DNA from: Bacilli bacterium
GTDB lineage: Bacteria > Bacillota_I > Bacilli_A > RF39 > UBA660
Direction of reading: 5' to 3'
DNA: 64,000 nt
Assembly: GCA_036648855.1 (NCBI GenBank)
Contig: JAVWCU010000001.1
Span: forward strand, 3,121 to 67,120
Below are positions 1,591-59,500 of the stretch, piece by piece (the stretch's first letter is position 1; each line of letters opens with the position of its first letter). A program made the position numbers and the translations under genes. The notes under the pieces were generated by a model. It had not been told where the DNA came from and searched no databases. It worked only from the letters and a program-made list of their open reading frames with translations.

Positions 1591-2316
1591 TTATATAATT
1601 ATCTTATTATTTATATATCTTTGTATCTCTTTTGCTTTATCACTTATTAAACTAGATATTAATTCCTCTTTACTTACATTCCTTAACATACATTCTATAT
1701 CTATTAACTCGTCTATATTATTGCTGATCTTTGTTTCTACTTTTACTTCCACTTTGTCTGTATTTATATTAGAAGCTGATTTACTTTTATTATCGCTAAC
1801 TATATCTTTTACTTTTATTTTTACTGTATTAAATCTTTTTGCTATTGTATAATCATTATCTACTGATTTATATATATAAATATATTCTTTACTAAATAAT
1901 TCTATTATCTTCTTTTTATATTTTGATAATAATATTTCATCTTTATAAAACTCATAATCTTTAAATATATATCTTCTTATATATAACTTTATTGCTCTTC
2001 TTAAATCTTTTGATTTTCGGGAAGTTGATATATCAACTATTTCTGAAACACTATATTCATTTAATGTGAACATATATATATTATCTGCTACCGTACTTTC
2101 TCTAAGCTTTATATCCACTACCATCTTCTCTGGTAATGCTCTTTGATATGTTCCTGTATTATTTATAACTGAATCTATTGCTGATATCTTTTGTCTTGCT
2201 GTACCTGTACAATCTTTTCCTACATTTATTAGTATCCTTTTCTTTTCCTCATTTGCAATAACTACTATTCCTTCCTGATTTAAATCATACATGTAATCTG
2301 GTCCTATTCCTACCAT
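1591..2316 (-). CDS. hypothetical protein (241 aa)
   Basis: GGAGGA RBS 8 nt upstream of ATG at 2316. TAA stop. Lys/Ile-rich, no recognisable motif. Confidence 0.55.
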   Translation of the reverse strand: MVGIGPDYMYDLNQEGIVVIANEEKKRILINVGKDCTGTARQKISAIDSVINNTGTYQRALPEKMVVDIKLRESTVADNIYMFTLNEYSVSEIVDISTSRKSKDLRRAIKLYIRRYIFKDYEFYKDEILLSKYKKKIIELFSKEYIYIYKSVDNDYTIAKRFNTVKIKVKDIVSDNKSKSASNINTDKVEVKVETKISNNIDELIDIECMLRNVSKEELISSLISDKAKEIQRYINNKIII

Positions 2317-2610
2317 CTTTATATTCCTCCAATATTTTTGTTTTTATTTCTTACTTTATTGTCTTCTGTCTTTTATGTGTATTTAGCTATTATACACATA
2401 GTAACTATATTTAGTTTATCTTATATTACTCATACAAGCAATTATACATACTTTTCCATAACTATACCGTATCTTAACGATACTGATCCTTCGCTTCGCT
2501 CAGGATGCTAATATAGTAAAACGATACATAAGTTATTATTTTCTATAATGGTTTGCTATTTTATTTCTCTTGTTTGGATTCTTATTCTCTTTGTTTTATA
2601 TTATTCGATT

Positions 2611-3522: not shown

Positions 3523-3540
3523 ATGATATGAGATGCATGT

Positions 3541-3711: not shown

Positions 3712-3993
3712 TTATATTTCCTCACTTTCAATATAATTATCACAATGTAGGCAATTATATTCATCTATATATGAATGATGATCTAAACATAGTTGACATT
3801 CCATAGTAGCTATACAATCTTTAGCTATTAAACAATTATCACATTGAGATTCACTACATTCTATATCATTCATATTAGACATTTGTATAATCCATTGTCT
3901 TTTAGTATCTTTATCAGTACAAGCAGCTATTAAATCAATAAGCCTATCTCTTTTTGCTGTCATATCAGTATTTAGTTTCATTTTTATTCTCAC
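3712..3993 (-). CDS. Cys-rich hypothetical protein (paired CxxC motifs; 93 aa from GTG 3993 or 89 aa from ATG 3981)
   Basis: ORF-track 3712..3993. TAA stop. CSESQCDNC...CQLCLDHH...CLHCDNY suggests a zinc-binding fold. Confidence 0.5.
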   Translation of the reverse strand: MRIKMKLNTDMTAKRDRLIDLIAACTDKDTKRQWIIQMSNMNDIECSESQCDNCLIAKDCIATMECQLCLDHHSYIDEYNCLHCDNYIESEEI

Positions 3994-4130
3994 TTTCTAT
4001 TTTTTCTATTGTATTTTAATACTACATTATTTCTGAAATTAAAGTAACCTTTAGATTTATCAGGAATTATTCCATACAATTCACTTTTATTATCCCATGC
4101 TATATCTATTTGTTTTATAAGTTGTGGCAT
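3984..4130 (-). CDS. possible 48-aa protein (MPQLIKQIDIAWDNKSELYGIIPDKSKGYFNFRNNVVLKYNRKNRKWE)
   Basis: ATG 4130 with GGAGA 6 nt upstream. One TGA two codons before the TAA, so the product is nearly the same under either code. Overlaps the start of 3712..3993. Confidence 0.2.
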
Positions 4131-4159
4131 AACTAATCTCCTGTCTATAATTAATCAAT

Positions 4160-4197
4160 ATTTAAAAAAAGAAGATGCCAATTAAGACATCTCCTGT
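4160..4197 (-). terminator. hairpin plus U7 tract on the minus strand, 30 nt after the stop of 4228..4992
   Basis: plus-strand AAAAAAAGAAGATGCCAATTAAGACATCTCC. The minus-strand RNA forms an AGAUG/CAUCU stem followed by UUUUUUU. Confidence 0.45.
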
Positions 4198-4227
4198 AAA
4201 GTAATTTTCTAAAAGCGAAGCTTGGTT

Positions 4228-4992
4228 TTATAGAGCACCAAATCCTCTAGATATTTGTTTATTGTTCTTATTAGCTTTAAGAGATTTTATAGTTCCTAGT
4301 AAAGATTGAACATTGTCTCCCTTTAAAAGTTCTTTGTGATTTAAATCTCTAATTACTGTATTAGCAACACAAGCAGTAGCTTCTACAGCAGTTTTAACAG
4401 TTCCAACACCTACTACAGCACCAATTTCTACAGCAGCTAAAGTTACTTCTCTACCTACTCTATTAGCAACTTGTGCAGTTGAACCACCTATCATACCAGC
4501 TCTTTTAGCCCAGTTTGTTACTTTAATTCCTTGTTGTGCTACTTTAGTACTAAGCTCTATAGCAGACATTTGATCTTCTGAAAGATTAACAGCTATTACA
4601 ACATATATTAAACTGTTATACATCTTAGGTGCAAATGGTTGTTGTAGAGTTACTATTTGTAAATCATTAACCTTAGCTCCTCTTAAAATATCGTTTCTTA
4701 CTATTTCATATTTCTCTGGCGATGTAGCTGTTAAAGAAAAACTATTTGCTACTAAATTCTCATTAACTTCATATGCTTCAGCTGGTAATACTCCACCTTG
4801 GATTCTTGCTGATATAGCTGACTCAATAATCATTATTTGACTATCAGTTAAAGCTTCTTCATCAAACTTAAGTGTTGTTATTTTTGTTTCTTCATCTGTC
4901 ATTACTTCTGCAACACCAACTGCTACCATTTCAAATAAATTTGCTAACAACTCGTCTATTAATGCCTTTTCTGTTGATTGAATAACTTTCAT
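4228..4992 (-). CDS. hypothetical protein (254 aa) with Ala/Val-rich C-terminal half
   Basis: AAGGAGA 8 nt upstream of ATG 4992. TAA stop. The conserved ATTTTCTAWAAGCGAAGCTTGGTTTTA element overlaps its stop codon. Confidence 0.6.
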   Translation of the reverse strand: MKVIQSTEKALIDELLANLFEMVAVGVAEVMTDEETKITTLKFDEEALTDSQIMIIESAISARIQGGVLPAEAYEVNENLVANSFSLTATSPEKYEIVRNDILRGAKVNDLQIVTLQQPFAPKMYNSLIYVVIAVNLSEDQMSAIELSTKVAQQGIKVTNWAKRAGMIGGSTAQVANRVGREVTLAAVEIGAVVGVGTVKTAVEATACVANTVIRDLNHKELLKGDNVQSLLGTIKSLKANKNNKQISRGFGAL

Positions 4993-5081
4993 ATTATTAT
5001 CTCCTTCTATACTCTGTATTTTATTATTATGAGCCTAGATATTTCTACCCAGACTCATGTAAAATCATTTTCTATTTGTTT

Positions 5082-5801
5082 TTAGAATTGAGGTTGTGCT
5101 CCTCCTGCCGATTCAAATTTAATTGGATCATCATTTGTATTATCTGTATTATCTTTAGTTACAGGTTTATTATCTCCTGCATTGTTCTTATCCTCAAAAG
5201 CTGGTGGGGATATTGGAGCTGGTCCAGATGATACTACTTCTGGTTCTCTTAAATTCTTACGTTCTGCCATTAGCATTTTCATAGTGTCGAAATCTTTATT
5301 TATCATACATTCTTTTATTTGAGCATCGAACATATCTCTAAGTTCTTTATCTGGATCAACTGTTACTGCTGTTCCTCTAGATACGCCTACAGATTTTTCA
5401 TATACTGCTAATTCATCATATGCTGATTTCTTTAAGTTTTGCATAGCCACATTATCTGTTTTTATATATTTAACTAAACTAAATCTTATATTTAATATCC
5501 TTTCAGCATACAACTTATATATATCTTTAAATGCATTTATTTCATCAACACTTAATGTCGTTCCAGAAAGAGTTTTCCCAGACTTAACATATTCTACTGC
5601 TGAACCACTCATCAAACCTTGTATTGTGTCCATAATATGTATATTTACAGTTTCACATGGTTCTATAGATATAGATTCTAATACTTCTTTTAATGCTAAT
5701 AAACTAGGCATAAATACTCCTGTACCTGATTTACAAATCTTTGTTCCTTCACTTAATGCCACTGCATTTCCTTGTCTTGCTACTATCATTACGTTTTTCA
5801 T
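5082..5801 (-). CDS. hypothetical protein (239 aa)
   Basis: AGGAGG 7 nt upstream of ATG 5801, preceded by conserved 52-nt leader copy A. TAA stop. Confidence 0.6.
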   Translation of the reverse strand: MKNVMIVARQGNAVALSEGTKICKSGTGVFMPSLLALKEVLESISIEPCETVNIHIMDTIQGLMSGSAVEYVKSGKTLSGTTLSVDEINAFKDIYKLYAERILNIRFSLVKYIKTDNVAMQNLKKSAYDELAVYEKSVGVSRGTAVTVDPDKELRDMFDAQIKECMINKDFDTMKMLMAERKNLREPEVVSSGPAPISPPAFEDKNNAGDNKPVTKDNTDNTNDDPIKFESAGGAQPQF

Positions 5802-5806
5802 AACGT

Positions 5807-5864
5807 ACCTCCTATAATTTAAATTTCATAAAAAACTATTTTCTATAAGCGAAGCTTGGTTTTA
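5807..5864 (-). promoter_or_regulatory. conserved promoter/leader element, copy A (minus-strand sense AAAACCAAGCTTCGCTTATAGAAAATAGTTTTTTATGAAATTTAAATTATAGGAGGT)
   Basis: about 48 of 52 nt identical to copy B at 6966-7017. The same box recurs at 4203-4230, 6405-6425 and at least five times in 7395-7720. Confidence 0.5.
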
Positions 5865-5877
5865 GTTTTTTAATTTC

Positions 5878-5905
5878 TAAAAACGGTTTTGAAAGGACCG
5901 TAAAC
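5878..5905 (-). terminator. short hairpin (ACGGU/ACCGU) followed by UUUUAG on the minus strand, just after the stop of 5915..6358
   Basis: plus-strand AAAAACGGTTTTGAAAGGACCGTAAACCTTTT. Weak 5-bp stem. Confidence 0.3.
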
Positions 5906-5914
5906 CTTTTATAT

Positions 5915-6358
5915 CTAAAATGAAAAGGCGTTTATAGCCATTAAATGTCTCAACTCATGTTTACATTCATGCAAAGTTTTTATATCTATTTCTTTATGAT
6001 GATATGCTCTATCACACATATCGTCTGTTGTTTTTATTATTTCTAAAGCATTTTCTATATCCCTTGTTTCTAGCAATTGTTTTATACTATTTATATTATT
6101 GTTATATACATAGCTAAATGTTTCATCTGTTTCTTGTTTTGAATTTTCTATTCTTTCATCTATTTCAATAGCCTTATTAAAAGCTTTTTCTAGATCTTCT
6201 AACATTTCTGGCAATTCTTTAACTAATGTTTTAACAAAATCTTTTCCTGCAGTAAGCAATTGTATAGCATCTGTTGCTGTGTACTCTTGTTCTAATGTAA
6301 TGTTTCCAATCTTAATATCTCTAACTTCTATATTTTCTATTTTGAATAATGTTTTCAT
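5915..6358 (-). CDS. hypothetical acidic protein (147 aa from ATG 6358)
   Basis: ORF-track 5915..6364. ATG 6358 has AGGAGG 9 nt upstream. TAG stop. Confidence 0.55.
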   Translation of the reverse strand: MKTLFKIENIEVRDIKIGNITLEQEYTATDAIQLLTAGKDFVKTLVKELPEMLEDLEKAFNKAIEIDERIENSKQETDETFSYVYNNNINSIKQLLETRDIENALEIIKTTDDMCDRAYHHKEIDIKTLHECKHELRHLMAINAFSF

Positions 6359-6477
6359 AACCAATGACCTCCTACAGTCTATAATATATTTTATTTGATA
6401 AGAGTATTTTAACTCTCATAAGTAACAATTTTCTATAAGCTTTAGCTTGTTTTTATTTCTCCCCCGAAGGGAAAAGA

Positions 6478-6957
6478 CTAAAATGCATCTACTGCACTTA
6501 TAGTCTTTGGTTTTTCTACTATTTGATTCATCAAATTCCAACTAGCATTTATGTAACTATTGAACACTGGAGATTTAATCCCTTTTTGTCCAAACAATCT
6601 AACATTTGTATTTAGTTCATTTAATTGCTTATGTAACTCTTTAACTTGTACTAATACTGCTGGATTTATTTCTTTTTTGTCTTCACCTTTAGTGTGACCT
6701 TTTTCAATCCAATATGATCTAGTATCTTCGTAAGCTAAAAAGCTAACTGTATTGCATAGTAAGAAAGTAACAGGTGTTTCAAATCTAGTATTTCTAGGTA
6801 TCCTAGCTAGAGTTTTATTAAGAGCTTTAAGAGCTTCTAATTGAGTATCTTCACCTTTGAAAGTTTCATAACTTCCTGAACCGTTTGCGTTTAATTTAGA
6901 ATCTGTAACTATTGCAGTGCCGCCTCTGCCTACTATTGTAAATATTCTTTGTGCCAT
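6478..6957 (-). CDS. hypothetical protein (159 aa from ATG 6957)
   Basis: ORF-track 6478..6966. ATG 6957 has AGGAGG 9 nt upstream, preceded by conserved leader copy B. TAG stop. Confidence 0.55.
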   Translation of the reverse strand: MAQRIFTIVGRGGTAIVTDSKLNANGSGSYETFKGEDTQLEALKALNKTLARIPRNTRFETPVTFLLCNTVSFLAYEDTRSYWIEKGHTKGEDKKEINPAVLVQVKELHKQLNELNTNVRLFGQKGIKSPVFNSYINASWNLMNQIVEKPKTISAVDAF

Positions 6958-6965
6958 AATTGACA

Positions 6966-7017
6966 ACCTCCTATAATTTAAATTTCATAAAATATAATTT
7001 TCTATAAGCGTAGCTTT
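6966..7017 (-). promoter_or_regulatory. conserved promoter/leader element, copy B
   Basis: near-identical to 5807-5858: ACCTCCTATAATTTAAATTTCATAAAA..ATTTTCTATAAGCG.AGCTT. Confidence 0.5.
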
Positions 7018-7403
7018 ATAATAATGTCTTTTGATAATCAGCTATATTAACTAATTATCAAAAAACATTATTTTCTACCCCCGAAGGGGAGAACCTAACT
7101 GCTGTAATCAGCTAGATCCTTTTGATAGACGAGTTACAGTCTCTCTATCTCAACTTACATCCCAATACTTCTTGAAGGCTCCGAAGTTTTAACGGATTTT
7201 ACAAGAATACACTTTACGCAGCTATGCGGTCTAGAGCTACTAGATAATACAAGGGTTTAACCTACGATCCCCTTAAGGTTAAAAATACGACATAACAGAC
7301 AGCGAATCCGTTATGAAGGTATGCACCTGGCTATTCAAGAGCATACACTCTCATCAGTCAATAGCAACTGCCTATCACTTTAGTCGATTAGGTAACTTTT
7401 TGT

Positions 7404-7654
7404 TTCATAAAAGACAATTTTCTATAGCGTCAGCTTAAGCTCTTAAAAAGCTTTTACCAAAACTATAAAAGAATTATCTTTCATAAGACATAATTTTCTA
7501 ATGCAATTTTAATTGCACTTGTTATTATGTCCTGAGACTGCACTCGTCAGTATTACTGAAAAGTATAGCTTCATAAAAGACAATTTTCTATAGCTTTAGC
7601 TTAAGCTTTTAAAAAGCTTTCACCAAAACTATAAAAGAATTATCTTTCATAAGA
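7404..7654. repeat. two 85-nt direct repeat units (7404-7488 and 7570-7654, about 90 % identical)
   Basis: each unit carries TTCATAAAAGACAATTTTCTATAGC, an AAGCTTTTAAAAAGCTT hairpin, and ends in TCATAAGA. Confidence 0.7.
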
Positions 7655-7719
7655 AACTATTTTCTATAAGGCTTTAGCCTTTAAGAAGCTTTAATGTCTC
7701 ATTAAAGATTATTTTCTAT

Positions 7720-7779
7720 GAGCACTGCCAGGGAAGCAAACGTAGCCGTGGCTATGGATTGCGACCGTAGGCAGTGCTC
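7720..7779. other. 60-nt palindromic stem-loop GAGCACTGCC...GGCAGTGCTC with nested inner hairpins
   Basis: perfect 10-bp outer stem read directly. Too short and wrongly proportioned for a tRNA cloverleaf. Confidence 0.6.
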
Positions 7780-7815
7780 TTTTATAATAACCCGTAGGGC
7801 TAGAGCTTTAGAATT

Positions 7816-7831
7816 ATCCCCCGAAGGGGAT
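7816..7831 (-). terminator. AUCCCC-UUCG-GGGGAU hairpin directly after the TAA of 7836..9323 (no clear U tract)
   Basis: plus-strand ATCCCCCGAAGGGGAT. On the minus-strand RNA this is a UUCG-tetraloop-capped 6-bp GC stem. Confidence 0.35.
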
Positions 7832-7835
7832 TACT

Positions 7836-9323
7836 TTAGAACGTAAAACGTGCTCCTCTCATAGATTTGCTTGACATAACTGCTTTTGGTTTTTCTTTAT
7901 CAACATCACCTACCCTTTCGTCATTATTATTTTTCGCTTTTTGAGCAGCTACCATAGCTTCGAATTCTTCTTGTTCTTTACGATCTGCTTCAATAGATTC
8001 GTTGTGAACTTGTGTATTCTTCACTTTCTCTTGTTCCTCAACATTTTGGAAAGCTATAACATCTTTTTGGTATTGCTCATACATCTTGCTAACAAATCTA
8101 GCTATTGGTTCAATTACTTTACTATGAGCATTTCCTTTTTGCCCTTTCATTAAACTACTTAAATGGTATACAACAGGTATATCATTAACAGCAGGTCTCC
8201 AAGTCCATAGCATAATTTGATTTCTCTTCTTATCTATTTCATATCCACTGTATAGATCATTGCTATTAAATTTACATACACCTTCAGCTGCGTGCACTCT
8301 AGCAAAATATCCTCTTCTATATCCTTCTTTTAAATCAACAGTAACAGGTGATACAAGTACTTTATTTTTAGGATGGCCAATCTTAACTAGCTCTTCTTTA
8401 TATAAAGCAACATCAGCTTCTGTTATTTCAGTATCAAAAGTCTTAGGAATAATAGTTATATTCTCACAACTTGGACTAGCCATTATAAAATGTTTTTCTG
8501 TAGAATATAAACACTCTTCATTCTTTCTTGACTTGAAGCTTGAAACCTTTTGTAATATATCTGATTTAGTTTCTACAATTACTATTTCAGACACGTGATT
8601 TACTTTCATTGCTTCTGGTTCAACTGTTTTAGTTTGTTCTTCTTCTAAACTAGACGCCTCTAACTCAGCAGCTATTCTTTCATCTTCTATCTGTCTTAAA
8701 ATTTCTTCATCTGTCATAACAGGCTTATTATTTTCTATTGGTTTATCATTTTCTTCTACATTATTTAATTTAATTTTTAGTTTTGAACATTTACTTTGGA
8801 ATGTTTCAGAACTCTTTTTATATGTATCAGCTTTAGCATTAGCTTCTTCTAATTGTTTCTTTAATTCAGCCATAGCATCATAACAATCACTTAACTCATC
8901 TTTAGTATTTACTAATGCACAATCTAATTGATTCACTTGTTTCTTTAAATCTGCTATTTCATTTTTGTTTGTTAATGTTACATTATTTGATCTGAATGAC
9001 TGTAATTCTTCTTTTAAATCTTTTTTATCTTTTGTTAAGCTTTTTATTTCTAACTTTAATTCTTCATTCTTGTTCTTATATTTAGTAGCTTGACCTCTTG
9101 CAGTTTTAAGTTCTGACTTAATAGCATTTAACTCATCTATTTTATTAGCTAATTTTACTTCTAAATCATTTGATACAGTAACAACTGGTGTAGATTCTAA
9201 CATATCTATGCAACCTAATAATTCTAATTCTTCTCTTAATCTTATTATTCTTATTTCCGCTAAGCTTTTTCTTTCTTGTGTTTGTCTTTCTAATAACTCT
9301 ATTATCATCATATCTGTATTCAT
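7836..9323 (-). CDS. hypothetical coiled-coil protein (495 aa)
   Basis: AAGGAGAA RBS upstream of ATG 9323. TAA stop. The N-terminal 230 aa are Lys/Glu/Leu heptad-rich. The C-terminal globular domain contains GYRRGYFARVHAAEG. Confidence 0.6.
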   Translation of the reverse strand: MNTDMMIIELLERQTQERKSLAEIRIIRLREELELLGCIDMLESTPVVTVSNDLEVKLANKIDELNAIKSELKTARGQATKYKNKNEELKLEIKSLTKDKKDLKEELQSFRSNNVTLTNKNEIADLKKQVNQLDCALVNTKDELSDCYDAMAELKKQLEEANAKADTYKKSSETFQSKCSKLKIKLNNVEENDKPIENNKPVMTDEEILRQIEDERIAAELEASSLEEEQTKTVEPEAMKVNHVSEIVIVETKSDILQKVSSFKSRKNEECLYSTEKHFIMASPSCENITIIPKTFDTEITEADVALYKEELVKIGHPKNKVLVSPVTVDLKEGYRRGYFARVHAAEGVCKFNSNDLYSGYEIDKKRNQIMLWTWRPAVNDIPVVYHLSSLMKGQKGNAHSKVIEPIARFVSKMYEQYQKDVIAFQNVEEQEKVKNTQVHNESIEADRKEQEEFEAMVAAQKAKNNNDERVGDVDKEKPKAVMSSKSMRGARFTF

Positions 9324-9405: not shown

Positions 9406-11484
9406 TTACTTTGCTATTAATATAGCTCCAACAGGTGTAGCTATTGTGTTAACAGCTTTTGCATTACTTAATTTGTCAGTTAAATAAAAATCATTTATGT
9501 CGCCTAACATTCTTCCATAGCTTTCTTTTCCTTCTTCATTTAACTTAGTCATATACATTTTATTGTCACCAGAATGCATTTTGAATTCTGCATCTAGTAC
9601 AAATTGCATATAATTGCTCCAATTAGCTAATGGTTTAGCTAACTTTTCTGCAACAATCTTTAAAGCTATGTCATCAGCATTTCTTGGAGCAGTATCTATA
9701 AGCTTAGATCTATTATATACCCTTGAATATACTGTCTTATCTTGCTCATATAGAGATGTCATTTCCATTATTAAGTCCTCTGATAATACATTGTCTTCCA
9801 TTGCTACATTAGATATAGAATCAAATAAGAAGTATTGAACTTCTTCAAATACATATGGATTTATATATTCTTTAAATTCTAAATATCCTTCTTCATTTAC
9901 TTTAATAATAATTGGACCTGTAAAATCCTCTTTATCTATTCTTAAAGCATACATCTCGCCACCATCATTATCCATACCTATATATGCTTGACCTTTATTA
10001 AATTCTAATAATTGTCCATCACATATTGCATCTTCAACTTCGAATATAGTTTCTGGTAATTCTATATCTACATTCTTAGTCATCTCAGACTTGTTAAAGT
10101 GACATTTTAATTCATTAGAGAATAAAGCTTCAACGGCTTTAAATCTATAATTTGAATTAGGCATATTATTTCTATAGAACCATCCAGCATTTACTGCTAT
10201 AAACATAGTATCTTGAGGTGAGAATCCTCTAATTTTACCAGCAGTATATATTACATTTCTACCAGTCATAGCTAATTCTTCAACTTTAGTCATAGATACA
10301 AATTTGTTATATTTAAATGTAGAATTTATCATCTCCATTATAATTACAGCTATTTCTTGAATTTCATTTACGGCTTCTTTTATTTTTACTTTTTCATTTG
10401 GATCAGTTATTCCAACAGTATATGATTTATCAAATTGACTAAATAAATTCATATTAGAAGCACTGTAATGAACATTTACTAATTCCTCTAAGTAATTGTT
10501 TAAATGCTTTATCATACCTTCAGATACTTGAGAAATAGGATCTACTATTACACATTCTTTTAGTAATTCAGCTCTCATTTTATAAAGATCTTTATCTGCT
10601 TGCTCTTGTGTAACTATTAAGTTTCCTTTATTATCTTGATTTGACTTATAGTATCTTTCAGTATTCTCTTTAACTAGTTTTTCATAATCAAATAATAAAG
10701 GTCTATCATTTAATATTTCATGTTTAAATTCATCAACATCATTATTTATATAACCCTTTTTCTTAGATATTATGTCGTTAAAGTTATTTTGAGTTGATAA
10801 ATTTCTAGATTTAAGTATCATTTCATCTGACATGAATTCTGATATCTCTAATAGTCCTTTTTTCAATTCAGGTTTCTTAGCAGCATCTATTTCTATTTCT
10901 GACATAACAGTTGCTATTATTCCTAAGTCTTGCCCAATCCTTACTAAGTCTTCTTGAGATGCTTGTCCTATATTAGCTATAGCTTCAGCGAATTCATTAA
11001 TTCTTTCTTTAACAGCTAAAAGAATCAATTGCTTTCTTCCATCTTTAGAAGTAACTTTTATGAATTCTTCTTTTTTAAATATCTTGTCGTATCCTACATT
11101 GATTCCTGTTCCAAACTTTTTAAATACTTTAGTAATTTTTGTGTTACATACTCTATCAGTACCTGGAACTAAGAATTGTTGATTCAATTCATTATCAACT
11201 AAAGTATCTGCTATTGATAAAGATACTATTATTAAACCAATTTGAGAACCTGCTGAGAAACTTATCTTAGCTAAAGCAGCAACAACTCCTATTTCATTGT
11301 TAGCTTTGCATAGTTCCATTAAATTTAATTCCATTTGTTCAAACTTACTACTTCTTAATACATTAACAGCTTGTAAATCATTTTCCATTTGTGTAGTTAA
11401 ACATTTTAATACATCAGTTTGATGTTGGTTATTAGCTTTTTCTTTAAACATATTGAATCCTCTTTGTTGTATATTAGTGTTCAT
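9406..11484 (-). CDS. hypothetical protein (692 aa)
   Basis: GAGGAGAA 7 nt upstream of ATG 11484. TAA stop. No in-frame TGA. No motif recognised. Confidence 0.6.
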   Translation of the reverse strand: MNTNIQQRGFNMFKEKANNQHQTDVLKCLTTQMENDLQAVNVLRSSKFEQMELNLMELCKANNEIGVVAALAKISFSAGSQIGLIIVSLSIADTLVDNELNQQFLVPGTDRVCNTKITKVFKKFGTGINVGYDKIFKKEEFIKVTSKDGRKQLILLAVKERINEFAEAIANIGQASQEDLVRIGQDLGIIATVMSEIEIDAAKKPELKKGLLEISEFMSDEMILKSRNLSTQNNFNDIISKKKGYINNDVDEFKHEILNDRPLLFDYEKLVKENTERYYKSNQDNKGNLIVTQEQADKDLYKMRAELLKECVIVDPISQVSEGMIKHLNNYLEELVNVHYSASNMNLFSQFDKSYTVGITDPNEKVKIKEAVNEIQEIAVIIMEMINSTFKYNKFVSMTKVEELAMTGRNVIYTAGKIRGFSPQDTMFIAVNAGWFYRNNMPNSNYRFKAVEALFSNELKCHFNKSEMTKNVDIELPETIFEVEDAICDGQLLEFNKGQAYIGMDNDGGEMYALRIDKEDFTGPIIIKVNEEGYLEFKEYINPYVFEEVQYFLFDSISNVAMEDNVLSEDLIMEMTSLYEQDKTVYSRVYNRSKLIDTAPRNADDIALKIVAEKLAKPLANWSNYMQFVLDAEFKMHSGDNKMYMTKLNEEGKESYGRMLGDINDFYLTDKLSNAKAVNTIATPVGAILIAK

Positions 11485-11551: not shown

Positions 11552-11581
11552 AAAAAAAGAGGATGCATTAAATACATCCTC
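11552..11581 (-). terminator. rho-independent terminator after 11593..13773
   Basis: plus-strand AAAAAAAGAGGATGCATTAAATACATCCTC. The minus-strand RNA forms a GAGGAUG/CAUCCUC stem followed by U7. Confidence 0.6.
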
Positions 11582-11592: not shown

Positions 11593-13773
11593 CTATTGAA
11601 CAGTTTTCTTAATAGTTACACCATCATTATCAGCGTTCTTTTCTAATAATATATCAACTAACTCTTTCTCAAATACTGTTGCAACACCATCATAATCTGT
11701 ATCCATACCAGCTAATCTATGCTTAACAGTATTATTTGGAGCCATTTTTATTACACCATAAGATGTATTTATAAAGTAATCTAATAAAATAATCTTTTCT
11801 TTATCAGATAATACTTCTAATTCAGTTATTCTCTTAACTAATCTATCTTTAGTTAAGAATGTCATTATACAATTTTCATCAGCAGATGGAGATGGATATT
11901 TGAATGTTACACCAGTTAATAATTCATCTATTGCTTTATCTTTATTAACTATCGAATCATCAGCCATTATTTCAGCTATTTCATCTTGGAATCTTAATTC
12001 TACATCATAAGAATAAGCTTCTAATCTTCCAGTGTTTTCATTAGCACCTAGTACACCATCAATCTTACCCTTTGTTAAGAAGAATGAGCAATCAAATAAA
12101 GCTCTTAAGAATACAGCATCTATTTCTATCTTAAACTTTTGTATTTGTGATTTTATTTGAGTTAACTCTTGCTTTATGTAGCTTTCTAATGCAGCTTCAT
12201 TTATTAAACCGTCTTCTACATATCTGAAGATGAATTGGGCTAAAGAACAATTTTTAGCATTTACATCTCCATTCATTAACTCATCTACTCTATTGTTATA
12301 TTGCTTATCTATTAAATTAATTAAAACTTTCATAGCTTTTTCTTTATTAGCATATATAAACTTTTGTAACATTTGACTTGCAGTTTGAGTAATAGAGCAT
12401 TTAGCTATATCTAATAAATAGTTTTGGAAACCACCATTTACTATTGCTTGTAAACTTACGTCTTTTAATGTTTTACCACCATTTCCATCTATTATCATAC
12501 CTAAACAATTTTCATTACCAACTATTATTAAATCATAATCAGCTTTGTTTAATTTAGATACGTCTGTACCAGCAGCTACTTTAAGTATTCTCTTGTTGTC
12601 TACAGTATCAATTAATACATCTTTCATATGTTGCATAACATCTTGACTATTAGCTTCACCAAATATTTTAGTAAATACTACATTACATCTAGCTTGTATA
12701 GCTAATAAAGCTGCTTGTGCTTTACTTATCTTTCTTCCAAGTAAAGCACACATATAAACCATATATTCTACAGAGAAGTATCCAGCACCATCATATGTAT
12801 TTCTATCTATAACAATATTGTTCTTTTCTAATTCTTCTAAAGCTTCAGGCATATAATCTTCTGGTCCTTCTATTTCTCCCATGTATATAACAACACCGAA
12901 TTCAGAATTTCCAAGTGTACCTGCTTCAATGCAAGGTGTACCAAGTTGTCCTATTCTTTTAGCAAATTTCTTAAGCTTGCCTATAGAATTCTGTACTGCT
13001 GTTGCTAAAGATAATGCAAATCCACCTACTTCATCTATTATGTCACAAGCTATCATGTTATCTACTGATGTAAACATAGCAGTTTCATTTCTTTCGTTAG
13101 ATGGAGACCAACTTATTATATTGTATGTCATTATATTATCTTGCTGATTTTTAGATTTACTAAAGTATACGTTATCTTCATCATCCAAACTAATACCTTT
13201 AGTCATAATGCTATTAATAATCTTATCTTTAGTATCTTTCATTGTATTTTTCTTGACTTTTAGATTTTTAAATTTAGTTTTCTTAAATACATTTTTAATA
13301 TCTCTATCTAACATAGAAAAATCTAATGTAGCTATAGAAGCTGCTTCTATATATCTTTTATCTGAATACGCATCTATATCACCGCATCTAACATCATATT
13401 TAGGTTGTATAGAATTGTTTTCTTTATCGTATTCTGATATTTTTATTGTACATGCTTCATTTACTTGGTCTTCTCCAGTGTATGCAACTAATGCTCTAGT
13501 GTATGGATTATTAGAACCTAACATGTTAAATGCTTCACCTTTTACAGCATAATTACCTTTAGTTCCAACTCTCTCAGCTCTTATCATTATACATTTTGTA
13601 ACATAACCTGTTTCGTATATAGAACTTGTTAATACTTTTACTAATGCTGCATGTCCTTTAGGTGATAATGTACCTCTTACTGGTATTGATAATCCATTAA
13701 TTATACTATCTACTACCTTTTGAATCTTTTCTGCCATTGATACTTTTCTGTTGTTAAATAAATAGTTGTTCAT
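11593..13773 (-). CDS. hypothetical protein (726 aa)
   Basis: AGGAGGAA 7 nt upstream of ATG 13773. TAG stop. No in-frame TGA. No confident motif; GNGGKT is not a canonical P-loop. Confidence 0.6.
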   Translation of the reverse strand: MNNYLFNNRKVSMAEKIQKVVDSIINGLSIPVRGTLSPKGHAALVKVLTSSIYETGYVTKCIMIRAERVGTKGNYAVKGEAFNMLGSNNPYTRALVAYTGEDQVNEACTIKISEYDKENNSIQPKYDVRCGDIDAYSDKRYIEAASIATLDFSMLDRDIKNVFKKTKFKNLKVKKNTMKDTKDKIINSIMTKGISLDDEDNVYFSKSKNQQDNIMTYNIISWSPSNERNETAMFTSVDNMIACDIIDEVGGFALSLATAVQNSIGKLKKFAKRIGQLGTPCIEAGTLGNSEFGVVIYMGEIEGPEDYMPEALEELEKNNIVIDRNTYDGAGYFSVEYMVYMCALLGRKISKAQAALLAIQARCNVVFTKIFGEANSQDVMQHMKDVLIDTVDNKRILKVAAGTDVSKLNKADYDLIIVGNENCLGMIIDGNGGKTLKDVSLQAIVNGGFQNYLLDIAKCSITQTASQMLQKFIYANKEKAMKVLINLIDKQYNNRVDELMNGDVNAKNCSLAQFIFRYVEDGLINEAALESYIKQELTQIKSQIQKFKIEIDAVFLRALFDCSFFLTKGKIDGVLGANENTGRLEAYSYDVELRFQDEIAEIMADDSIVNKDKAIDELLTGVTFKYPSPSADENCIMTFLTKDRLVKRITELEVLSDKEKIILLDYFINTSYGVIKMAPNNTVKHRLAGMDTDYDGVATVFEKELVDILLEKNADNDGVTIKKTVQ

Positions 13774-15198: not shown

Positions 15199-15741
15199 TT
15201 ATCTTCGACTATTAATTCTTTTAGTAGTTTTATATTTTTCAAAATATATATATTCACTTATAGAATAAGCTTCTATTTCATGAAGTCTTTTTTTATACTC
15301 TTTCTCATAATCAAATTCATATCCTGGTATACGATATTGAGCGGCATGTATTAATTCATGTATCAACGTTAATTCTCTTTCTTCATCATTACAATACTCA
15401 GCTATTTCTATAGAACGATACTCGGCAATTCCTCCTAGCCTTTCATCTTCTCCTATGTCATCTTTAGAGTACATTAAATCTCTTTCATCAAATACTTTAA
15501 ATAAATCAACTTTAGGTAATTCAAAGCTAGATTCTAATAAATTGACAGTATCATAAGTATTTTCTTCTTCGTTGAAGTAAGTAACTTTTACATTGTTTGC
15601 TACCATTATAGATAAGATTTTTATCATTTTGTCTAATACAACATCACATGGTTGTGAAATGTAGTATTTTGTTAATGCATTCACTTCAGTACATAATTCA
15701 ACATTTGTTCTAAAATCTTGTTGCATAATTCTTCTTCTCAT
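15199..15741 (-). CDS. HExxH zinc-metallopeptidase-like protein (180 aa), ImmA/IrrE/SprT-like
   Basis: motif LTLIHELIHAAQY. AAGGAGAA 6 nt upstream of ATG 15741. TAA stop. Confidence 0.6.
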   Translation of the reverse strand: MRRRIMQQDFRTNVELCTEVNALTKYYISQPCDVVLDKMIKILSIMVANNVKVTYFNEEENTYDTVNLLESSFELPKVDLFKVFDERDLMYSKDDIGEDERLGGIAEYRSIEIAEYCNDEERELTLIHELIHAAQYRIPGYEFDYEKEYKKRLHEIEAYSISEYIYFEKYKTTKRINSRR

Positions 15742-56555: not shown

Positions 56556-59500
56556 ATGGCTTATAATAAAAAGACAACCGTATATGAATCTAATTATGAT
56601 TTAGCTTTAAAAGCTAAGTTAAAACAACAAGCTATCAAAAAGATGGAAGATAGAAACACTATGTCTAAAGAAGATATGTTTAACTATTTAGAATACTTAG
56701 CTCCTGGTAATGATTATGTAAAAGAAAGCAATCTAATAATCAAAGCTAGTAAAAATAAAGTATTGAAAAATAAAAGTTTAAGACCCGATTACAAAGACGT
56801 TAATGATATATTAAAAAACTTAAAAGAATATAATTTTTATGACATTATATCTAATAAAAACCAGACAGGTTCTGAACTGATTAAAAAGACTATAGATTTC
56901 AATGGGAAGATATTTCATAGTAATCAAAAAGGAGGTTCATCAAATGAATCTTTAGGTACATGGAATGAATCTTTTAGAAATTTCACTAGTTTAAAAAAAC
57001 AAGCTAAACTAGGAAATGAAGCAACTGTATTTGGATTTGACTTAGAGACTGTCGGAAGTTCACTTCCTGAAGGCATGTGGAAAGCGGATCACATAACAGA
57101 GTTTTCTATGCAAGAGATGAATTTAGCAACTAATGAAATATTAAGAAATGACACTATTGCTATTGGTCTAACAGAAGACCAAGGTAAGAAAATTATTGAT
57201 GATATAGAAAAAGCTATTAAAAGTGGAACTTTAGAAAAGAACGAAAATTTAAGAGTTTCTGCTATGAGATATAGTTTATATGGAGATGATAAAGTTACAT
57301 ATGAAAAAACAGCTGAAGGATATTATAAATTTACAAATTTTATAGATTCTAAAAAACATGAAATGTATAACATTGAAAAAATCAAAGCTGGTGTAAACAA
57401 GTTCGTCTCTATGGGTAATGACACTGATTATATAAATGGAGTAAGAGCAGATCACTATTATGTAGGACAATCAATAAAACATATGAAAGACAAAGTAGTT
57501 GATAAACAAACTGCTATGTTATTAGGACAAAATCATTTAGGACATGATAATCCTATTATGCAATATCAAATGTCTTTATGAAATGAACTATATAAAGATA
57601 AAACTAATATGTTCGAAAATCTAGATTTAACAATGTCACCAAATCAAACAATAGATTTACTTGGAGGCCTTAGACTTCATTCAGAATATTACGATACAGG
57701 AGATTTATATCCTAAAGCAAAAGGATTAAATATGTCTGAAGTTAAAACTATTAGAGGGCAAGAATACTTAGTACAAAGTCACTTAAAAAAATGGTTTGAA
57801 CAAAAAGGATTAAAACCCCATTTAGCAGAAGATGATGTTACAGCTTTACTTGGATTATTTACTATGGATTCAGAAATATTAAAAAGTGGAACTTTAGTTG
57901 ATTTAATAGGCGATAAGATGTCTAAAGTTAATTATAAAGAAACAGCTTTAGAAACAAATAAGCATATTTTAAAAGCTAAAAAAAGAGCTGGTCTTTATCA
58001 AGGTAAAGGTTATTTAAATTTTGCTAATGACAAAGAAGGGAATATATATACTGCCAGTGATCATATCTTAAGTGATACAGATGGATTTGCTAAATCTAAC
58101 GGAGGAGTTATTCATAATGATTTCAATGTTGGTGCAGGAATCAATAAAGGGGCATTTTATGATTTAAAAGATATACAAGAAATAACTATTGATGACAATA
58201 TAAGATCTCAAATAGATAAAGTAGCACCAGAGTATTCTGGAAATAAATTATACCATGTTAAACTTGGAATGATAACTTCAGATAATCACAAAGATACTAG
58301 ACTTGGAAATTTAGAGCAAAATATAATATTAAAAAGTGAACAAGAATTACAAGGATTCTTAAGTTCTACATTTGATGTTGTAGCAAAAAGAGATGAAAAT
58401 GGAAATATACAAATAGCTAAAGAACATATAGAAGATTTTGATATTAGAAAACTATCAGATGTTAAAGGAAGAGCTGTAGCTAAAGATGTTAATAAAAATT
58501 ATGATAAAAATCATAATGAATTATTAGAATCAGCTGTAGAAGCTCATAATAAAAAGCTATTAGTTTCTAGAGCTGAAAATTCATTTTTACAAGATGATTC
58601 ATTTAATAAATTATCAAAAGCTTTAACTTTAAAAGATGACTTAAAAGATTTCTTAGAACAAGAAAATGTAAAAGTAGAAAGTTTAAAACAAAAAGAAATA
58701 AACCAAATTATGTCTGCTAAAGTTGCTAGTGGCAATATGCCTTTAGGTTTAAATGAAGTACAGCTTGAACATGCCAAAGAAATAATAAATAATGCATTGT
58801 CTTACAAAAAAGATTATGCAGATCCTAATTCAATTACAAGAGTACTTGATTCATCTATAGACAACTATTCATCAGCTATGATTTATGTTGAAAACAATAA
58901 TAATGTATTGTCTAAAATAATAGATACATTAAAACAAAGTGAAATGTTTACAAAAGAAGATGGTAGATATAAAAATTCAACTAAAGAATATAGACAAGAA
59001 GTATTCAATAGAGTTTACAAAAAAGTGAAAGAAGAAACTGCAGAACATATTTATAGAAATCTAAATGTTAACAACCCTATAAAAAACAAAAGTATTTTAA
59101 ATGACGAAACTTTACAAGCTGCTGTAAGTGAATTTAGAAACATATATGAAGTTGATTATAACAAGATAGCTAAAACTCCTAAAGTAAACTTTGTTAGTAT
59201 TGCTAAACCAGAAGAATTACAAAATTTAGTAAAGTTAGATATATCAACAAAAGGTGCTTCATATAAATTAACTGATGCTGCTATAGATGCTGTCTATGGC
59301 AAAGATTATAAAAGAAAAATAGATAATGCTCATAAAAATGTAGCTGTTGCAAAAATGTTTAATTTATTAATGGAAGATGAAAATTTAAAAGAAACAGATG
59401 CTTTTAAAGGTATTATGTCTAGATACGGATATAATGAAAAGACTAAAAGTTTTAAAGAAAATATAAATCATATAGATATATCTGAGCGTATTGTTTCTGG

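What the first reader, a model, noticed from the sequence alone, without database searches (positions are those of the whole stretch)
4203..7720. Recurrent ATTTTCTATAGC / TATAGAAAAT box with a conserved 52-nt leader upstream of minus-strand genes
The box (minus-strand sense GCTTATAGAAAAT, often preceded by AAAACCAAGCTTCGC) lies 40-77 nt upstream of the start codons of 5082..5801, 5915..6358, 6478..6957 and the small ORF at 4130.

Copies A (5807-5864) and B (6966-7017) are about 92 % identical through to the AGGAGG RBS.

The same box occurs at least five more times in the ORF-free region 7395-7720.

This looks like a phage-specific promoter, or an RNA-processing site, driving a set of co-regulated (middle?) genes. 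At 4203 the box lies between the stop of 4228..4992 and a terminator, so an RNA-level role cannot be excluded.
Basis: seen in the sequence. Interest (0 to 1): 0.6.

Follow-up and report, generated by a model that had tools for sequence, protein, structure and literature searches.

The report
Promoter boxes of a phage's own polymerase
The repeated box is real and is most likely the promoter read by an unusual RNA polymerase that this giant phage encodes a few kilobases upstream. Promoters of this polymerase class are mostly undefined, so the box gives a concrete candidate sequence to test.

Summary
It is a 20-nt two-part motif, TAGAAAAT-N8-ATGA. There are 10 exact copies against 0.3 expected by chance, plus 2 degenerate copies. 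All lie on the minus strand, all are intergenic, and all fall between 2526 and 7718.

The window comes from a giant myovirus distantly related to Bacillus phage 0305phi8-36. About 4 kb upstream, on the same strand, a 726-aa protein has the predicted fold of QDE-1/RDR2/crAss-gp66 two-barrel RNA polymerases, with an invariant DxDxD loop.

Six metagenomic relatives (37-54% polymerase identity across lineages; two close pairs at 73-74%) carry their own versions of the motif at the same syntenic places. The core [T/C]A[G/T]AAA-N11-TGA is kept, and the upstream element changes in step with the polymerase clade. Phage 0305phi8-36 has an analogous, already published candidate: a hairpin followed by a T-rich stretch and TGTA, in 14 copies next to its YonO-like polymerase.

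Best reading: promoters specific to the phage polymerase, driving single-gene cassettes and small RNAs. No transcript data exist, so this is an inference. It is a new variant of a known kind.

The parts
7699..7718 (-). Motif copy 1 (TAGAAAATAATCTTTAATGA), the first of the tandem array
   Evidence: Box 1 is abutted by the 3' arm of a long stem, 7709-7729 paired with 7770-7790.
7647..7666 (-). Motif copy 2, with hairpin AAGGC-taaa-GCCTT at 7668-7681
   Evidence: It is part of a 97-nt unit duplicated at 93% identity.
7571..7590 (-). Motif copy 3, with hairpin AGCTT-aagcta-AAGCT at 7592-7607
7481..7500 (-). Motif copy 4, with hairpin TGCAAT-taaa-ATTGCA at 7502-7517
7405..7424 (-). Motif copy 5, immediately upstream of a conserved structured non-coding RNA
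7078..7404 (-). Roughly 330-nt conserved structured non-coding RNA. It starts after copy 5 and ends in the CCCC-ttcg-GGGG hairpin that abuts copy 6.
   Evidence: It aligns with L128 and L130. RNAalifold predicts 80 pairs, 20 of them with compensatory changes, from 3 sequences. There is no Rfam match.
7058..7077 (-). Motif copy 6 (box 2 is TTGA), with hairpin CCCC-ttcg-GGGG at 7078-7089
   Evidence: It is followed by a 25-bp inverted repeat at 7020-7072.
6985..7004 (-). Motif copy 7 (leader B), 47 nt before the start of 6478..6957. Hairpin AAGC-tac-GCTT at 7006-7016.
6416..6435 (-). Motif copy 8, 77 nt before the start of 5915..6358. Hairpin AAGC-taaa-GCTT at 6437-6448.
5826..5845 (-). Motif copy 9 (leader A), 44 nt before the start of 5082..5801. 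Hairpin AAGC-ttc-GCTT at 5847-5857.
5055..5074 (-). Motif copy 10, 82 nt before the start of 4228..4992. No hairpin.
4192..4211 (-). Motif copy 11, degenerate (TTTAGAAAAT...AGGA). Hairpin at 4213-4223. It is followed at once by a canonical terminator at 4170-4195 and lies 81 nt before the start of 3990..4130.
   Evidence: The same arrangement occurs in L123, L124 and L126.
2526..2545 (-). Motif copy 12 (box 2 is ATGT), in the second ORF-free region, 229 nt before the start of 1591..2316
   Evidence: Orthologous copies occur in L123 and L126.
11593..13773 (-). 726-aa two-barrel RNA polymerase of the QDE-1/RDR/YonO/gp66 class, with an invariant catalytic D691-x-D693-x-D695
   Evidence: The AlphaFold2 model has pLDDT 84.5 and pTM 0.82. 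The 11 Foldseek matches with E <= 0.001 are all RDR2, QDE-1 or crAss-like phi14:2 gp66, each at probability 1.00. The invariant residues are listed. The catalytic loop aligns with those of orf99 and YonO.
9406..11484 (-). 692-aa protein that always follows the polymerase gene. It is inferred, not shown, to be the second polymerase subunit.
   Evidence: Synteny holds in all 6 relatives. The catalytic loop sits only about 35 aa from the C-terminus of the 726-aa protein. The structure model failed, and neither a PDB hit nor a fused homologue was found.
11552..11581 (-). Canonical hairpin plus T-run terminator after the 726-aa gene. A second one lies at 9367-9395, after the 692-aa gene.
   Evidence: These contrast with the hairpins of the motif region, which have no T-run.
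3990..6957 (-). Five consecutive small genes of unknown function (159, 147, 239, 254 and 46 aa), each with its own motif copy
   Evidence: for the ORFs. No Pfam family and no informative PHROG match (one weak hit to an unknown-function PHROG) for the four larger genes scanned; the 46-aa ORF was not scanned. The gene order is conserved in the relatives.

Best explanation
**What it is.** The box is the core promoter of the phage's own RNA polymerase. That polymerase is a two-barrel enzyme of the QDE-1/YonO/crAss-gp66 class, made from the 726-aa protein and probably also the adjacent 692-aa protein.

**Proposed recognition.** The enzyme recognises a stretch of about 20-24 bp. This comprises an A-rich box 1 ([T/C]A[G/T]AAA; here TAGAAAAT), a T-rich spacer, and an invariant TGA 17 nt from the start of box 1. 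Initiation is proposed at or near that TGA.

**Layout.** The promoter heads self-contained cassettes: hairpin, promoter, a short AT-rich leader of about 15-50 nt, ribosome-binding site, gene.
- Five consecutive small genes are arranged this way.
- Six or seven tandem copies sit in the ORF-free stretch just downstream of the polymerase operon. There they would produce small structured RNAs, including one of about 330 nt.

**Role of the hairpin.** The small G+C-rich hairpin abutting box 1 in this lineage most likely marks the 3' end of the preceding transcription unit. It would act as a terminator or RNA stabiliser with UNCG-type loops and no U-tract. It could also contribute to recognition.

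**Shown:** the motif, its statistics, its conservation across relatives, the polymerase fold, and the lack of sigma-70 geometry.

**Inferred:** that the motif starts transcription, which enzyme reads it, where the start site lies, and when the genes are expressed.
For: 1. **Excess.** There are 10 exact copies against 0.31 expected. All are in gene sense and all are intergenic.
2. **Independent recovery.** A matrix built from relatives alone recovers the 12 sites.
3. **Position relative to genes.** Box 2 lies 27-30 nt or 60-65 nt before five start codons. Leaders A and B are 92% identical.
4. **Conservation of place and core.** Six relatives, at 37-54% polymerase identity across lineages (two close pairs at 73-74%), carry motif copies at the same syntenic positions with the same core spacing. 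These positions are the array after the 385-585-aa gene, upstream of the small genes there, and in the second ORF-free region of most of them.
5. **Concerted change.** The upstream element changes together within each genome and follows the polymerase clades. It is hairpin+TAGAAAA in the window, L128 and L130; hairpin+ACAGAAA in L129; AAAATC+TATAAA in L123 and L126; and CCCAA+CATAAA in L124. This is the pattern expected for a phage-encoded reader.
The 726-aa protein has the two-barrel polymerase fold and an invariant DxDxD.
7. **No sigma-70 geometry.** Sigma-70-type sites are not enriched (27 found, 33 expected). The best-conserved element, TGA, would fall in a sigma-70 spacer.
8. **No sigma factor nearby.** No sigma domain was found among the neighbouring genes scanned.
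9. **Two terminator styles.** The polymerase genes end in canonical hairpin plus T-run terminators, whereas the motif-region hairpins have no T-run. This suggests two transcription regimes.
10. **Precedent.** Phage 0305phi8-36 has 14 gene-sense copies of a hairpin followed by a T-rich stretch and TGTA. Where a start follows closely, TGTA lies about 25-45 nt before it. They lie in the single-gene region next to its YonO-like orf99. Hardies et al. 2007 proposed these as that polymerase's promoters (PMC2147016).
11. **Class precedent.** The two-barrel polymerases of phage P23-45 use dedicated promoter motifs (bioRxiv 10.1101/2022.12.01.518664).
Against: - There are no transcript 5' ends, so promoter function is inferred from position only.
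- The motif is confined to about 5 kb of the 64-kb window, so it controls few genes.
- The abutting hairpins have UUCG- and UACG-type loops typical of RNA-level elements.
- In the array, boxes 1 and 2 themselves lie inside strong inverted repeats. The array folds far better than shuffled sequence (z = -15).
- Copy 4211 and its orthologues in L123, L124 and L126 run straight into a canonical terminator.
- The 692-aa partner could not be shown to be a polymerase subunit.
- For crAss gp66, no early promoter motif was detectable.
Confidence: 0.6

Rival explanations
1. The box is a promoter read by the host's multisubunit polymerase. That polymerase would be redirected by a phage-encoded sigma-like factor or activator, or by an alternative host sigma, none of which is visible in this window.
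For: TAGAAA matches 4 of 6 positions of TTGACA. Five copies have a 4-5 of 6 match to the -10 hexamer 16-18 nt downstream. Only 64 kb of a genome of probably more than 200 kb is visible, so a sigma gene could lie elsewhere. Hardies et al. also left this possibility open for 0305phi8-36.
Against: Sigma-70-like sites are not enriched (27 against 33 expected). The putative -10 positions are not conserved between copies or between relatives (information content of about 0.1-0.7 bits). The invariant TGA would sit in the spacer. The 11-nt gap between box 1 and box 2 is too short for -35/-10 recognition. No sigma domain was found among 20 neighbouring proteins or in the called genes of the relatives.
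Confidence: 0.13
2. The element acts in RNA. The hairpin plus box would be a termination, processing or stabilising signal that separates the cistrons of a longer transcript, comparable to the RNase III sites between T7 early genes. Alternatively it is the terminator used by the phage polymerase.
For: Hairpins abut box 1 far more often than at control positions: 8 of 12 sites in the window, 7 of 7 in L128 and 7 of 8 in L129, against about 20%. The stems vary with compensatory changes and the loops are UUCG- or UACG-like. The array folds very strongly as RNA (z = -15). At 4211 the box lies between a stop codon and a terminator.
Against: Three relatives (L123, L126, L124) keep box 1 and box 2 at the same places with no abutting hairpin (0 of 7, 1 of 4 and 1 of 4 sites). 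Copies 5074 and 2545 also lack one. The conserved function therefore sits in the unstructured AT-rich boxes. No U-tract follows the hairpins, so they are not intrinsic terminators. The 4-6-bp stems are too short for RNase III. Five to six tandem copies with no cargo between them make little sense as processing sites. Lineage-specific concerted change argues against a conserved host RNase. No other promoter-like element is present to make the precursor transcript.
Confidence: 0.14
3. The box is a binding site for a DNA-binding protein. It would be an iteron of a replication origin or partition site in the ORF-free array, or an operator, rather than a promoter.
For: Six or seven same-orientation copies cluster in an 800-nt AT-rich ORF-free region rich in direct and inverted repeats. 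A second ORF-free region also carries a copy, along with other repeats.
Against: Spacing within the array is irregular (52, 76, 90, 76, 347 and 73 nt). Single copies precede each of five successive genes at promoter-like distances and always in gene sense. In 0305phi8-36 the analogous element is spread over 68 kb (13 of 14 copies within 23 kb), mostly in short intergenic gaps just upstream of genes.
Confidence: 0.05

Closest known systems
The 21-bp 'phage-specific promoter candidates' of Bacillus phage 0305phi8-36 (Hardies et al. 2007, PMC2147016), proposed targets of its YonO-like polymerase orf99
   Same: The phage lineage is distantly related (portal 40% identical). Both elements lie in gene sense only, in short gaps before small single-gene units next to the two-barrel polymerase gene. 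Both have a hairpin with a variable, compensating outer stem, followed by a T-rich stretch and an invariant TG(T/A)A. In 0305phi8-36 that element lies about 25-45 nt before a start codon where one follows closely; here it lies 27-30 or 60-65 nt before five starts. Neither has been tested experimentally.
   Different: The sequences are unrelated. The 0305phi8-36 hairpin has a constant core, CGTTCGCACG, and lies 5-8 nt from TGTA. Here the hairpin sequence varies, and a conserved A-rich box 1 (TAGAAAAT) is inserted, putting the hairpin about 18 nt from TGA. Three relatives have no hairpin at all. Here the polymerase appears split into 726-aa and 692-aa proteins, against one 1218-aa chain, and shows no detectable sequence similarity to orf99 outside the catalytic loop.
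Promoters of the two-barrel polymerases of Thermus phage P23-45: an AT-rich motif for the virion enzyme gp96 and a GC-rich motif for gp64 (bioRxiv 10.1101/2022.12.01.518664)
   Same: These are dedicated conserved motifs upstream of start sites, read by phage single-chain two-barrel polymerases of the same broad class. They cluster on early genes.
   Different: For P23-45 the start sites were mapped and polymerase occupancy was shown by ChIP. Here nothing is mapped. The P23-45 motif sequences could not be compared because only figure legends are held. The phage lineage differs.
The SPbeta YonO promoter (PYonO; Forrest et al. 2017, PMC5467207)
   Same: The polymerase is of the same class. Its single mapped start lies in a long ORF-free region downstream of the polymerase gene and precedes a non-coding RNA. 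The primer-extension amplicon contains GGATAATAGTCATTTATGAGGG, which matches 15 of 20 positions of window copies 7590 and 7424.
   Different: The authors state that the YonO promoter sequence is undetermined. The SPbeta resemblance ranks only third of about 60,000 positions with one matrix and is not in the top hits with the other two, so it is a lead and not a match. SPbeta has one such promoter for a long late operon, not a dozen cassettes.
Hairpin promoters of the coliphage N4 virion polymerase (from my own knowledge, not checked here)
   Same: A short stem-loop of variable sequence sits immediately upstream of the start region, and several promoters stand in tandem. On the template strand the loops here read GAA, GTA or GGA closed by C-G, the stable DNA mini-hairpin type.
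   Different: The N4 enzyme is a T7-like single-subunit polymerase, not a two-barrel one. In N4 the hairpin is the recognition element. Here three relatives lack it, so it cannot be essential to the family.
T7-type promoters of single-subunit phage polymerases (from my own knowledge)
   Same: Both are contiguous elements of about 20-23 bp. An upstream part varies between related phages together with the polymerase, while the part near the start is conserved and AT-rich. Both occur once before each transcription unit.
   Different: The polymerase fold is unrelated and the sequence is different. The regulon here appears much smaller.

Membership tests
Phage-polymerase-specific promoter (general class) | A conserved motif of about 20 bp, far in excess of chance, found only between genes and in gene sense | tested here: met
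   There are 10 exact copies against 0.31 expected. All are minus-strand and intergenic. An independent matrix recovers them.
Phage-polymerase-specific promoter (general class) | The phage encodes its own RNA polymerase | tested here: met
   The 726-aa model (pLDDT 84.5) matches RDR2, QDE-1 and gp66 at Foldseek probability 1.00, with E from 4e-8 to 7e-5. The DxDxD loop is invariant.
Phage-polymerase-specific promoter (general class) | The motif changes in concert within each genome and tracks the polymerase lineage | tested here: met
   Four motif variants in 7 genomes follow the polymerase identity clades. The caveat is that they also follow genome phylogeny.
Phage-polymerase-specific promoter (general class) | Primary transcripts start at a fixed distance from the motif, and the phage enzyme initiates there in vitro | not testable with these tools
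   No RNA data or biochemistry is available.
0305phi8-36 21-bp promoter-candidate family | A hairpin with the constant core CGTTCGCACG | tested here: not met
   All 14 copies in 0305phi8-36 have this core. No window copy does.
0305phi8-36 21-bp promoter-candidate family | A T-rich stretch plus invariant TG(T/A)A shortly before the start codon (27-30 or 60-65 nt in the window), next to a YonO-like polymerase gene | tested here: met
   compared.
Sigma-70-type bacterial promoter | -35 and -10 hexamers separated by 16-18 nt and conserved across copies | tested here: not met
   There is no enrichment (27 against 33.4). The positions where a -10 would lie are unconserved. The two conserved boxes are only 11 nt apart.
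Intrinsic (rho-independent) terminator | A G+C-rich hairpin immediately followed by a U-tract | tested here: not met
   The hairpins are followed by ATAGAAAA. The scan finds only 3 terminator-like sites in 2000-8000, none at a box hairpin. True examples follow the polymerase genes.
N4-type hairpin promoter | A hairpin is obligatory at a fixed position upstream of the start | tested here: inconclusive
   A hairpin is present at 8 of 12 window sites, 7 of 7 in L128 and 7 of 8 in L129, against about 20% of control positions. It is absent in L123, L126 and L124.
Iterons of a replication origin | Regularly spaced tandem repeats confined to one non-coding region | tested here: not met
   Spacing is irregular, and half the copies are single and lie upstream of genes.
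YonO/QDE-1/RDR two-barrel polymerase (for the 726-aa protein) | Fold with two double-psi beta-barrels | tested here: met
   The 11 Foldseek matches with E <= 0.001 are all members of this class.
YonO/QDE-1/RDR two-barrel polymerase (for the 726-aa protein) | A catalytic DxDxD loop preceded by an R/K-x-P motif | tested here: met
   KYPSPS...HRLAGMDTDYDG is invariant in 32 homologues. It aligns with orf99 RMGGADTDGDK and resembles YonO QFDNDGDK.
YonO/QDE-1/RDR two-barrel polymerase (for the 726-aa protein) | Sequence-level membership (Pfam PF05183, or a significant match to YonO or orf99) | tested here: not met
   There is no Pfam, PHROG, PDB-sequence, tblastn or hhalign match.
YonO/QDE-1/RDR two-barrel polymerase (for the 726-aa protein) | A complete single chain, including the segment after the catalytic loop | tested here: inconclusive
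   The chain ends 31 aa after D695. The adjacent 692-aa protein could not be modelled (pLDDT 43). No fused homologue appears among 23 clusters.

The most novel reading that the evidence does not exclude
A previously unrecognised, sequence-orphan family of split two-barrel RNA polymerases (726 aa plus 692 aa) in giant phages of Firmicutes reads a hairpin-flanked two-part promoter. The extruded template-strand mini-hairpin (C-GAA-G type) helps recognition, as in phage N4 but evolved independently. The enzyme ignores canonical host terminators. This would explain the conserved promoter-then-terminator arrangement at 4211, and the promoter array that yields small structured RNAs just downstream of the polymerase operon.
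Probability: 0.15. Interest if true: 0.75.

Novelty: new variant of a known kind. Interest (0 to 1): 0.5.

Why it matters
**An open question becomes testable.** Promoter recognition by the QDE-1/YonO/crAss-gp66 class of phage polymerases is largely unsolved.
- The YonO promoter is stated to be undetermined (PMC5467207).
- The early promoters of gp66 showed no common motif (bioRxiv 10.1101/2020.03.07.982082).
- The 0305phi8-36 motif was never tested.

**What this finding supplies.** It gives a sharply defined candidate promoter, backed by comparison across seven genomes. The conserved core ([T/C]A[G/T]AAA-N11-TGA) is separable from a lineage-specific upstream element. This is the material needed to design in vitro transcription and specificity-swap experiments.

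**A new polymerase family.** The finding also points to a polymerase family that sequence searches do not see and that is apparently split into two genes.

**Limits.** The biology is that of an ordinary phage transcription cascade. The general idea is already published for a relative.

Tried and rejected
**Searches for relatives that found nothing useful**
- A distant blastn of 4000-8000 against the phage collection found nothing.
- IMG/VR has no relatives of the 495-aa or 239-aa proteins.
- Scans of the viral, metagenome and genome collections for the exact motif gave only single, chance-like hits per contig. These scans told us little.
- The exact window motif is absent from the relatives. 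Only reading their intergenic regions revealed the variants.

**RNA checks**
- No tRNAs were found.
- No Rfam family matches in 2200-7900, even at E <= 1.

**Sequence-level identification of the 726-aa and 692-aa proteins failed**
- PHROGs, Pfam, PDB sequences, tblastn and hhalign against orf99 all gave nothing.

**The 692-aa protein in particular**
- Two homologue searches returned only 4 sequences.
- AlphaFold2 on these failed, with pLDDT 43.
- An exhaustive search found 23 clusters and no fusion protein.

**Ideas tested and dropped**
- The 239-aa and 159-aa proteins are not paralogues despite near-identical leaders.
- The sigma-70 reading is rejected on spacing and lack of conservation.
- The intrinsic-terminator reading is rejected for lack of a U-tract.
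- Similarity to the SPbeta PYonO region is too weak to count.
- The 1902-aa protein has no DxDxD, so there is no sign of a tape-measure-fused polymerase as in P23-45.

Full report
**1. The observation**

On the minus strand the region reads as a series of units with the form ...AAGC-ttc-GCTT-A-TAGAAAAT-N8-ATGA....

The octamer TAGAAAAT occurs 30 times in the window against 16.8 expected. The informative unit is two-part, TAGAAAAT-N8-ATG(A):
- It has 10 exact copies, all on the minus strand. Their first bases are at 7718, 7666, 7590, 7500, 7424, 7004, 6435, 5845, 5074 and 2545.
- Block shuffles give a mean of 0.31 and a maximum of 3.
- With one mismatch allowed, two further copies appear at 7077 and 4211.
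- All 12 copies lie between ORFs. The other 18 octamers lack the second half-site.

Copies A and B are 92% identical over 51 nt, and a 97-nt unit holding two boxes is duplicated at 93%. Box-to-start distances are 44-82 nt.

A weight matrix built only from two relatives returns these 12 sites as the best hits in the 64-kb window. It adds one antisense hit at 57108.

**2. What genome this is**

- G+C content is about 29%. Genes run leftward over 1-18 kb and rightward beyond that.
- The rightward arm encodes a portal, a protease, a tail sheath and a major head protein.
- The portal is 35-44% identical to those of Moorella phage MTATph1 and the Bacillus giant phage 0305phi8-36 group.
- The same sequence exists only in fragments from sample SRR25820365 and in a 79-kb contig labelled 'Bacilli bacterium'.

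**3. A polymerase gene next door**

The leftward arm holds two large orphan genes just upstream of the motif cluster: 726 aa (11593..13773) and 692 aa (9406..11484). Sequence searches give nothing for either.

For the 726-aa protein:
- It has 71 metagenomic homologues.
- Their alignment shows an invariant KYPSPS...HRLAGMDTDYDG.
- The AlphaFold2 model is confident (pLDDT 84.5, pTM 0.82).
- The 11 Foldseek matches with E <= 0.001 are all plant RDR2, fungal QDE-1 or the virion polymerase gp66 of crAss-like phage phi14:2. Each has probability 1.00, with E from 4e-8 to 7e-5.
- The catalytic loop lines up with 0305phi8-36 orf99 (RMGGADTDGDK) and resembles YonO (QFDNDGDK).

The loop sits 31-35 residues from the C-terminus. 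In YonO about 300 residues follow it, and in orf99 about 645. I therefore infer that the always-adjacent 692-aa protein supplies the rest. I could not show this:
- Its model failed.
- A profile found nothing in the PDB.
- The 23 clusters found in 1.84 billion representatives are all 150-713 aa long, with no fusion to the 726-aa family.

Both genes end in canonical hairpin plus T-run terminators.

**4. Relatives**

Loci around six homologues were fetched: L123, L124, L126, L128, L129 and L130. They share the same gene order:
1. The two polymerase genes.
2. A gene of 385-585 aa.
3. An ORF-free stretch of 315-780 nt.
4. Three or four small genes.
5. A second ORF-free stretch.

The window's exact motif is absent from them. 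Each genome carries its own version at the same places:

| Genomes | Upstream element and box 1 | Box 2 |
|---|---|---|
| L128, L130 | G+C-rich hairpin + ATAGAAAAC/T | T[AGT]TGA |
| L129 | hairpin + ACAGAAA | variable; TGA kept in most copies |
| L123, L126 | AAAATC-N2-3-TATAAA | T[AGT]TGA |
| L124 | CCCAA-N1-2-ACATAAA | T[AGT]TGA |

In all of them the start of box 1 lies 17 nt from TGA, and the spacer is T-rich.

Polymerase identities define two clades, {L128, L130, L129} and {L123, L126, L124}. The window is nearer the second clade, and the motif variants follow these clades. The hairpin+[T/C]AGAAA type occurs on both sides of the deepest split, so it is probably ancestral.

**5. The hairpin**

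A perfect stem of at least 4 bp ending 0-3 nt before box 1 was counted at each site:

| Source | Sites with abutting hairpin |
|---|---|
| Window | 8 of 12 |
| L128 | 7 of 7 |
| L130 | 4 of 6 |
| L129 | 7 of 8 |
| Random control positions | about 20% |
| L123 | 0 of 7 |
| L126 | 1 of 4 |
| L124 | 1 of 4 |

- A ninth window site, 7718, is abutted by a long imperfect stem.
- The stems differ in sequence, for example CTGTC/GACAG, CCTCTAC/GTAGAGG, CGCC/GGCG and AAGGC/GCCTT. The pairing is what has been selected.
- The loops are ttcg, ttc, tac or taaa.
- No T-run follows any of these hairpins.

Because three relatives, and window copies 5074 and 2545, lack an abutting hairpin, the family-wide function sits in the two AT-rich boxes. 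The hairpin is best read as the 3'-end structure of the preceding unit, packed against the next promoter. A role in recognition is not excluded.

**6. What the copies precede**

- Five copies precede consecutive small genes of unknown function, with short AT-rich leaders.
- Six or seven copies stand in tandem in 7020-7835.
- Between copies 7424 and 7077 lies a segment of about 330 nt that aligns with L128 and L130. It has 20 predicted pairs with compensatory changes and no Rfam match.
- The array as a whole folds at -162.6 kcal/mol, against -91.9 for shuffles (z = -15).

**7. Mechanism and rivals**

*Host sigma-70 reading.* This fails for three reasons:
- There is no enrichment of such sites.
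- The would-be -10 positions are unconserved.
- The conserved boxes are 11 nt apart.

No sigma domain was found in 20 neighbouring proteins.

*RNA-processing or termination reading.* This fits the hairpins and the odd copy at 4211, but it does not fit:
- the hairpin-less relatives;
- the tandem copies with no cargo between them;
- the lineage-specific concerted change;
- the lack of any other promoter for a precursor transcript.

*Iteron reading.* This fails on irregular spacing and on the gene-proximal single copies.

I therefore hold that the box is the promoter of the phage's two-barrel polymerase, with confidence of about 0.6. Every functional step is inferred.

**8. Comparison with what is known**

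- *0305phi8-36.* Hardies et al. 2007 described 14 copies of a 21-bp self-similar element in this phage. They proposed them as promoters for orf99, noting the absence of sigma genes. I recovered 14 copies. Each has the form NNN-CGTTCGCACG-N'N'N', a hairpin with a compensating outer stem. It is followed after 5-8 nt by T-rich-TGTA, always in gene sense. Thirteen of the 14 lie in the 23 kb around orf99.
  - Shared with the window: the architecture and genomic setting.
  - Different: the sequence, the presence of box 1 here, and the hairpin-to-TG distance.
- *YonO.* Its promoter is explicitly undetermined. Its primer-extension amplicon holds a sequence resembling the box, but the resemblance is statistically weak.
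- *gp66.* Its early promoters showed no motif.

**9. Verdict**

This is a real, non-random and conserved element. Most probably it is a phage-polymerase promoter, and it is a new variant of a kind already proposed for a relative. Interest is moderate. Its value lies in making promoter recognition by this polymerase class testable, and in exposing an apparently split, sequence-orphan polymerase family.

Noticed in passing
window 15124-15182 (-): A type III hammerhead ribozyme scores above Rfam's gathering threshold (53.7 bits, E = 4.5e-9). It lies in the gap between 15199..15741 and the next gene downstream.
   Followed up: no
window 7078-7404 (-); L128 16165-16450; L130 16660-16990: A conserved non-coding RNA candidate of about 330 nt, with compensatory base-pair changes and no Rfam family. 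It is bounded by a motif copy at its 5' side and a UUCG hairpin at its 3' end.
   Followed up: partly
window 9406-13773 (-): The two-barrel polymerase appears to be split. The catalytic DxDxD lies about 35 aa from the end of the 726-aa protein, and a co-conserved 692-aa orphan follows it. The 692-aa family has only 23 clusters in 1.84 billion representative proteins.
   Followed up: partly
window 2320-2830 (-); L123 18991-19618; L124 20064-20736; L126 18615-19278: This is the second ORF-free region. It carries three tandem AATAATACAAGAG repeats, several TTGCA boxes and a conserved hairpin (CCTGAGCGAAGCGAAGGATCAGG). It also holds a 30-mer, TTACTATGTGTATAATAGCTAAATACACAT, conserved in all relatives. 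The contigs of several relatives (L125, L126, L127, L129) end just beyond it, which suggests a genome end or a terminal repeat.
   Followed up: no
window 2831-3415 (-): A GIY-YIG homing-endonuclease gene (Pfam E = 6e-8) sits between the small-gene block and the second ORF-free region. The relatives have no gene of that size there, so it looks like an insertion.
   Followed up: no
window 4170-4211 (-); L123 ~18601-18660; L124 ~19495-19560; L126 ~17978-18040: A motif copy is followed immediately by a canonical hairpin plus T-run terminator whose stem begins at box 2. The arrangement is conserved in three relatives. A transcript starting there would be about 35 nt long unless the polymerase reads through.
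   Followed up: partly
window 57089-57108 (-): A strong motif match (TAGAAAACTCTGTTATGTGA, 18.1 bits with the matrix built from relatives only) lies antisense inside the rightward gene 56556..57581. It has no upstream hairpin. It could be a chance match or an antisense promoter.
   Followed up: partly
window 7719-7835 (-): Downstream of the 495-aa gene there are three successive hairpins with UUCG or UACG loops. One is a long stem, GAGCACTGCC...GGCAGTGCTC. The set is conserved in outline in all relatives and ends exactly at the first motif copy.
   Followed up: partly
window 13774-14383 (-): An ORF-free stretch of about 600 nt with higher G+C content lies upstream of the polymerase gene. The relatives have a gap of about 500-600 nt (less where a 36-aa ORF is called) at the same place. 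Its content has not been analysed.
   Followed up: no
L133 (SPBc2) 5433-5461 and 5590-5612 (-): Two copies of ...TAAT(A/G)(G/T)TCATTTATGA(A/G)GG lie in the ORF-free region downstream of yonO and yonN. One of them falls inside the published PYonO primer-extension amplicon.
   Followed up: partly
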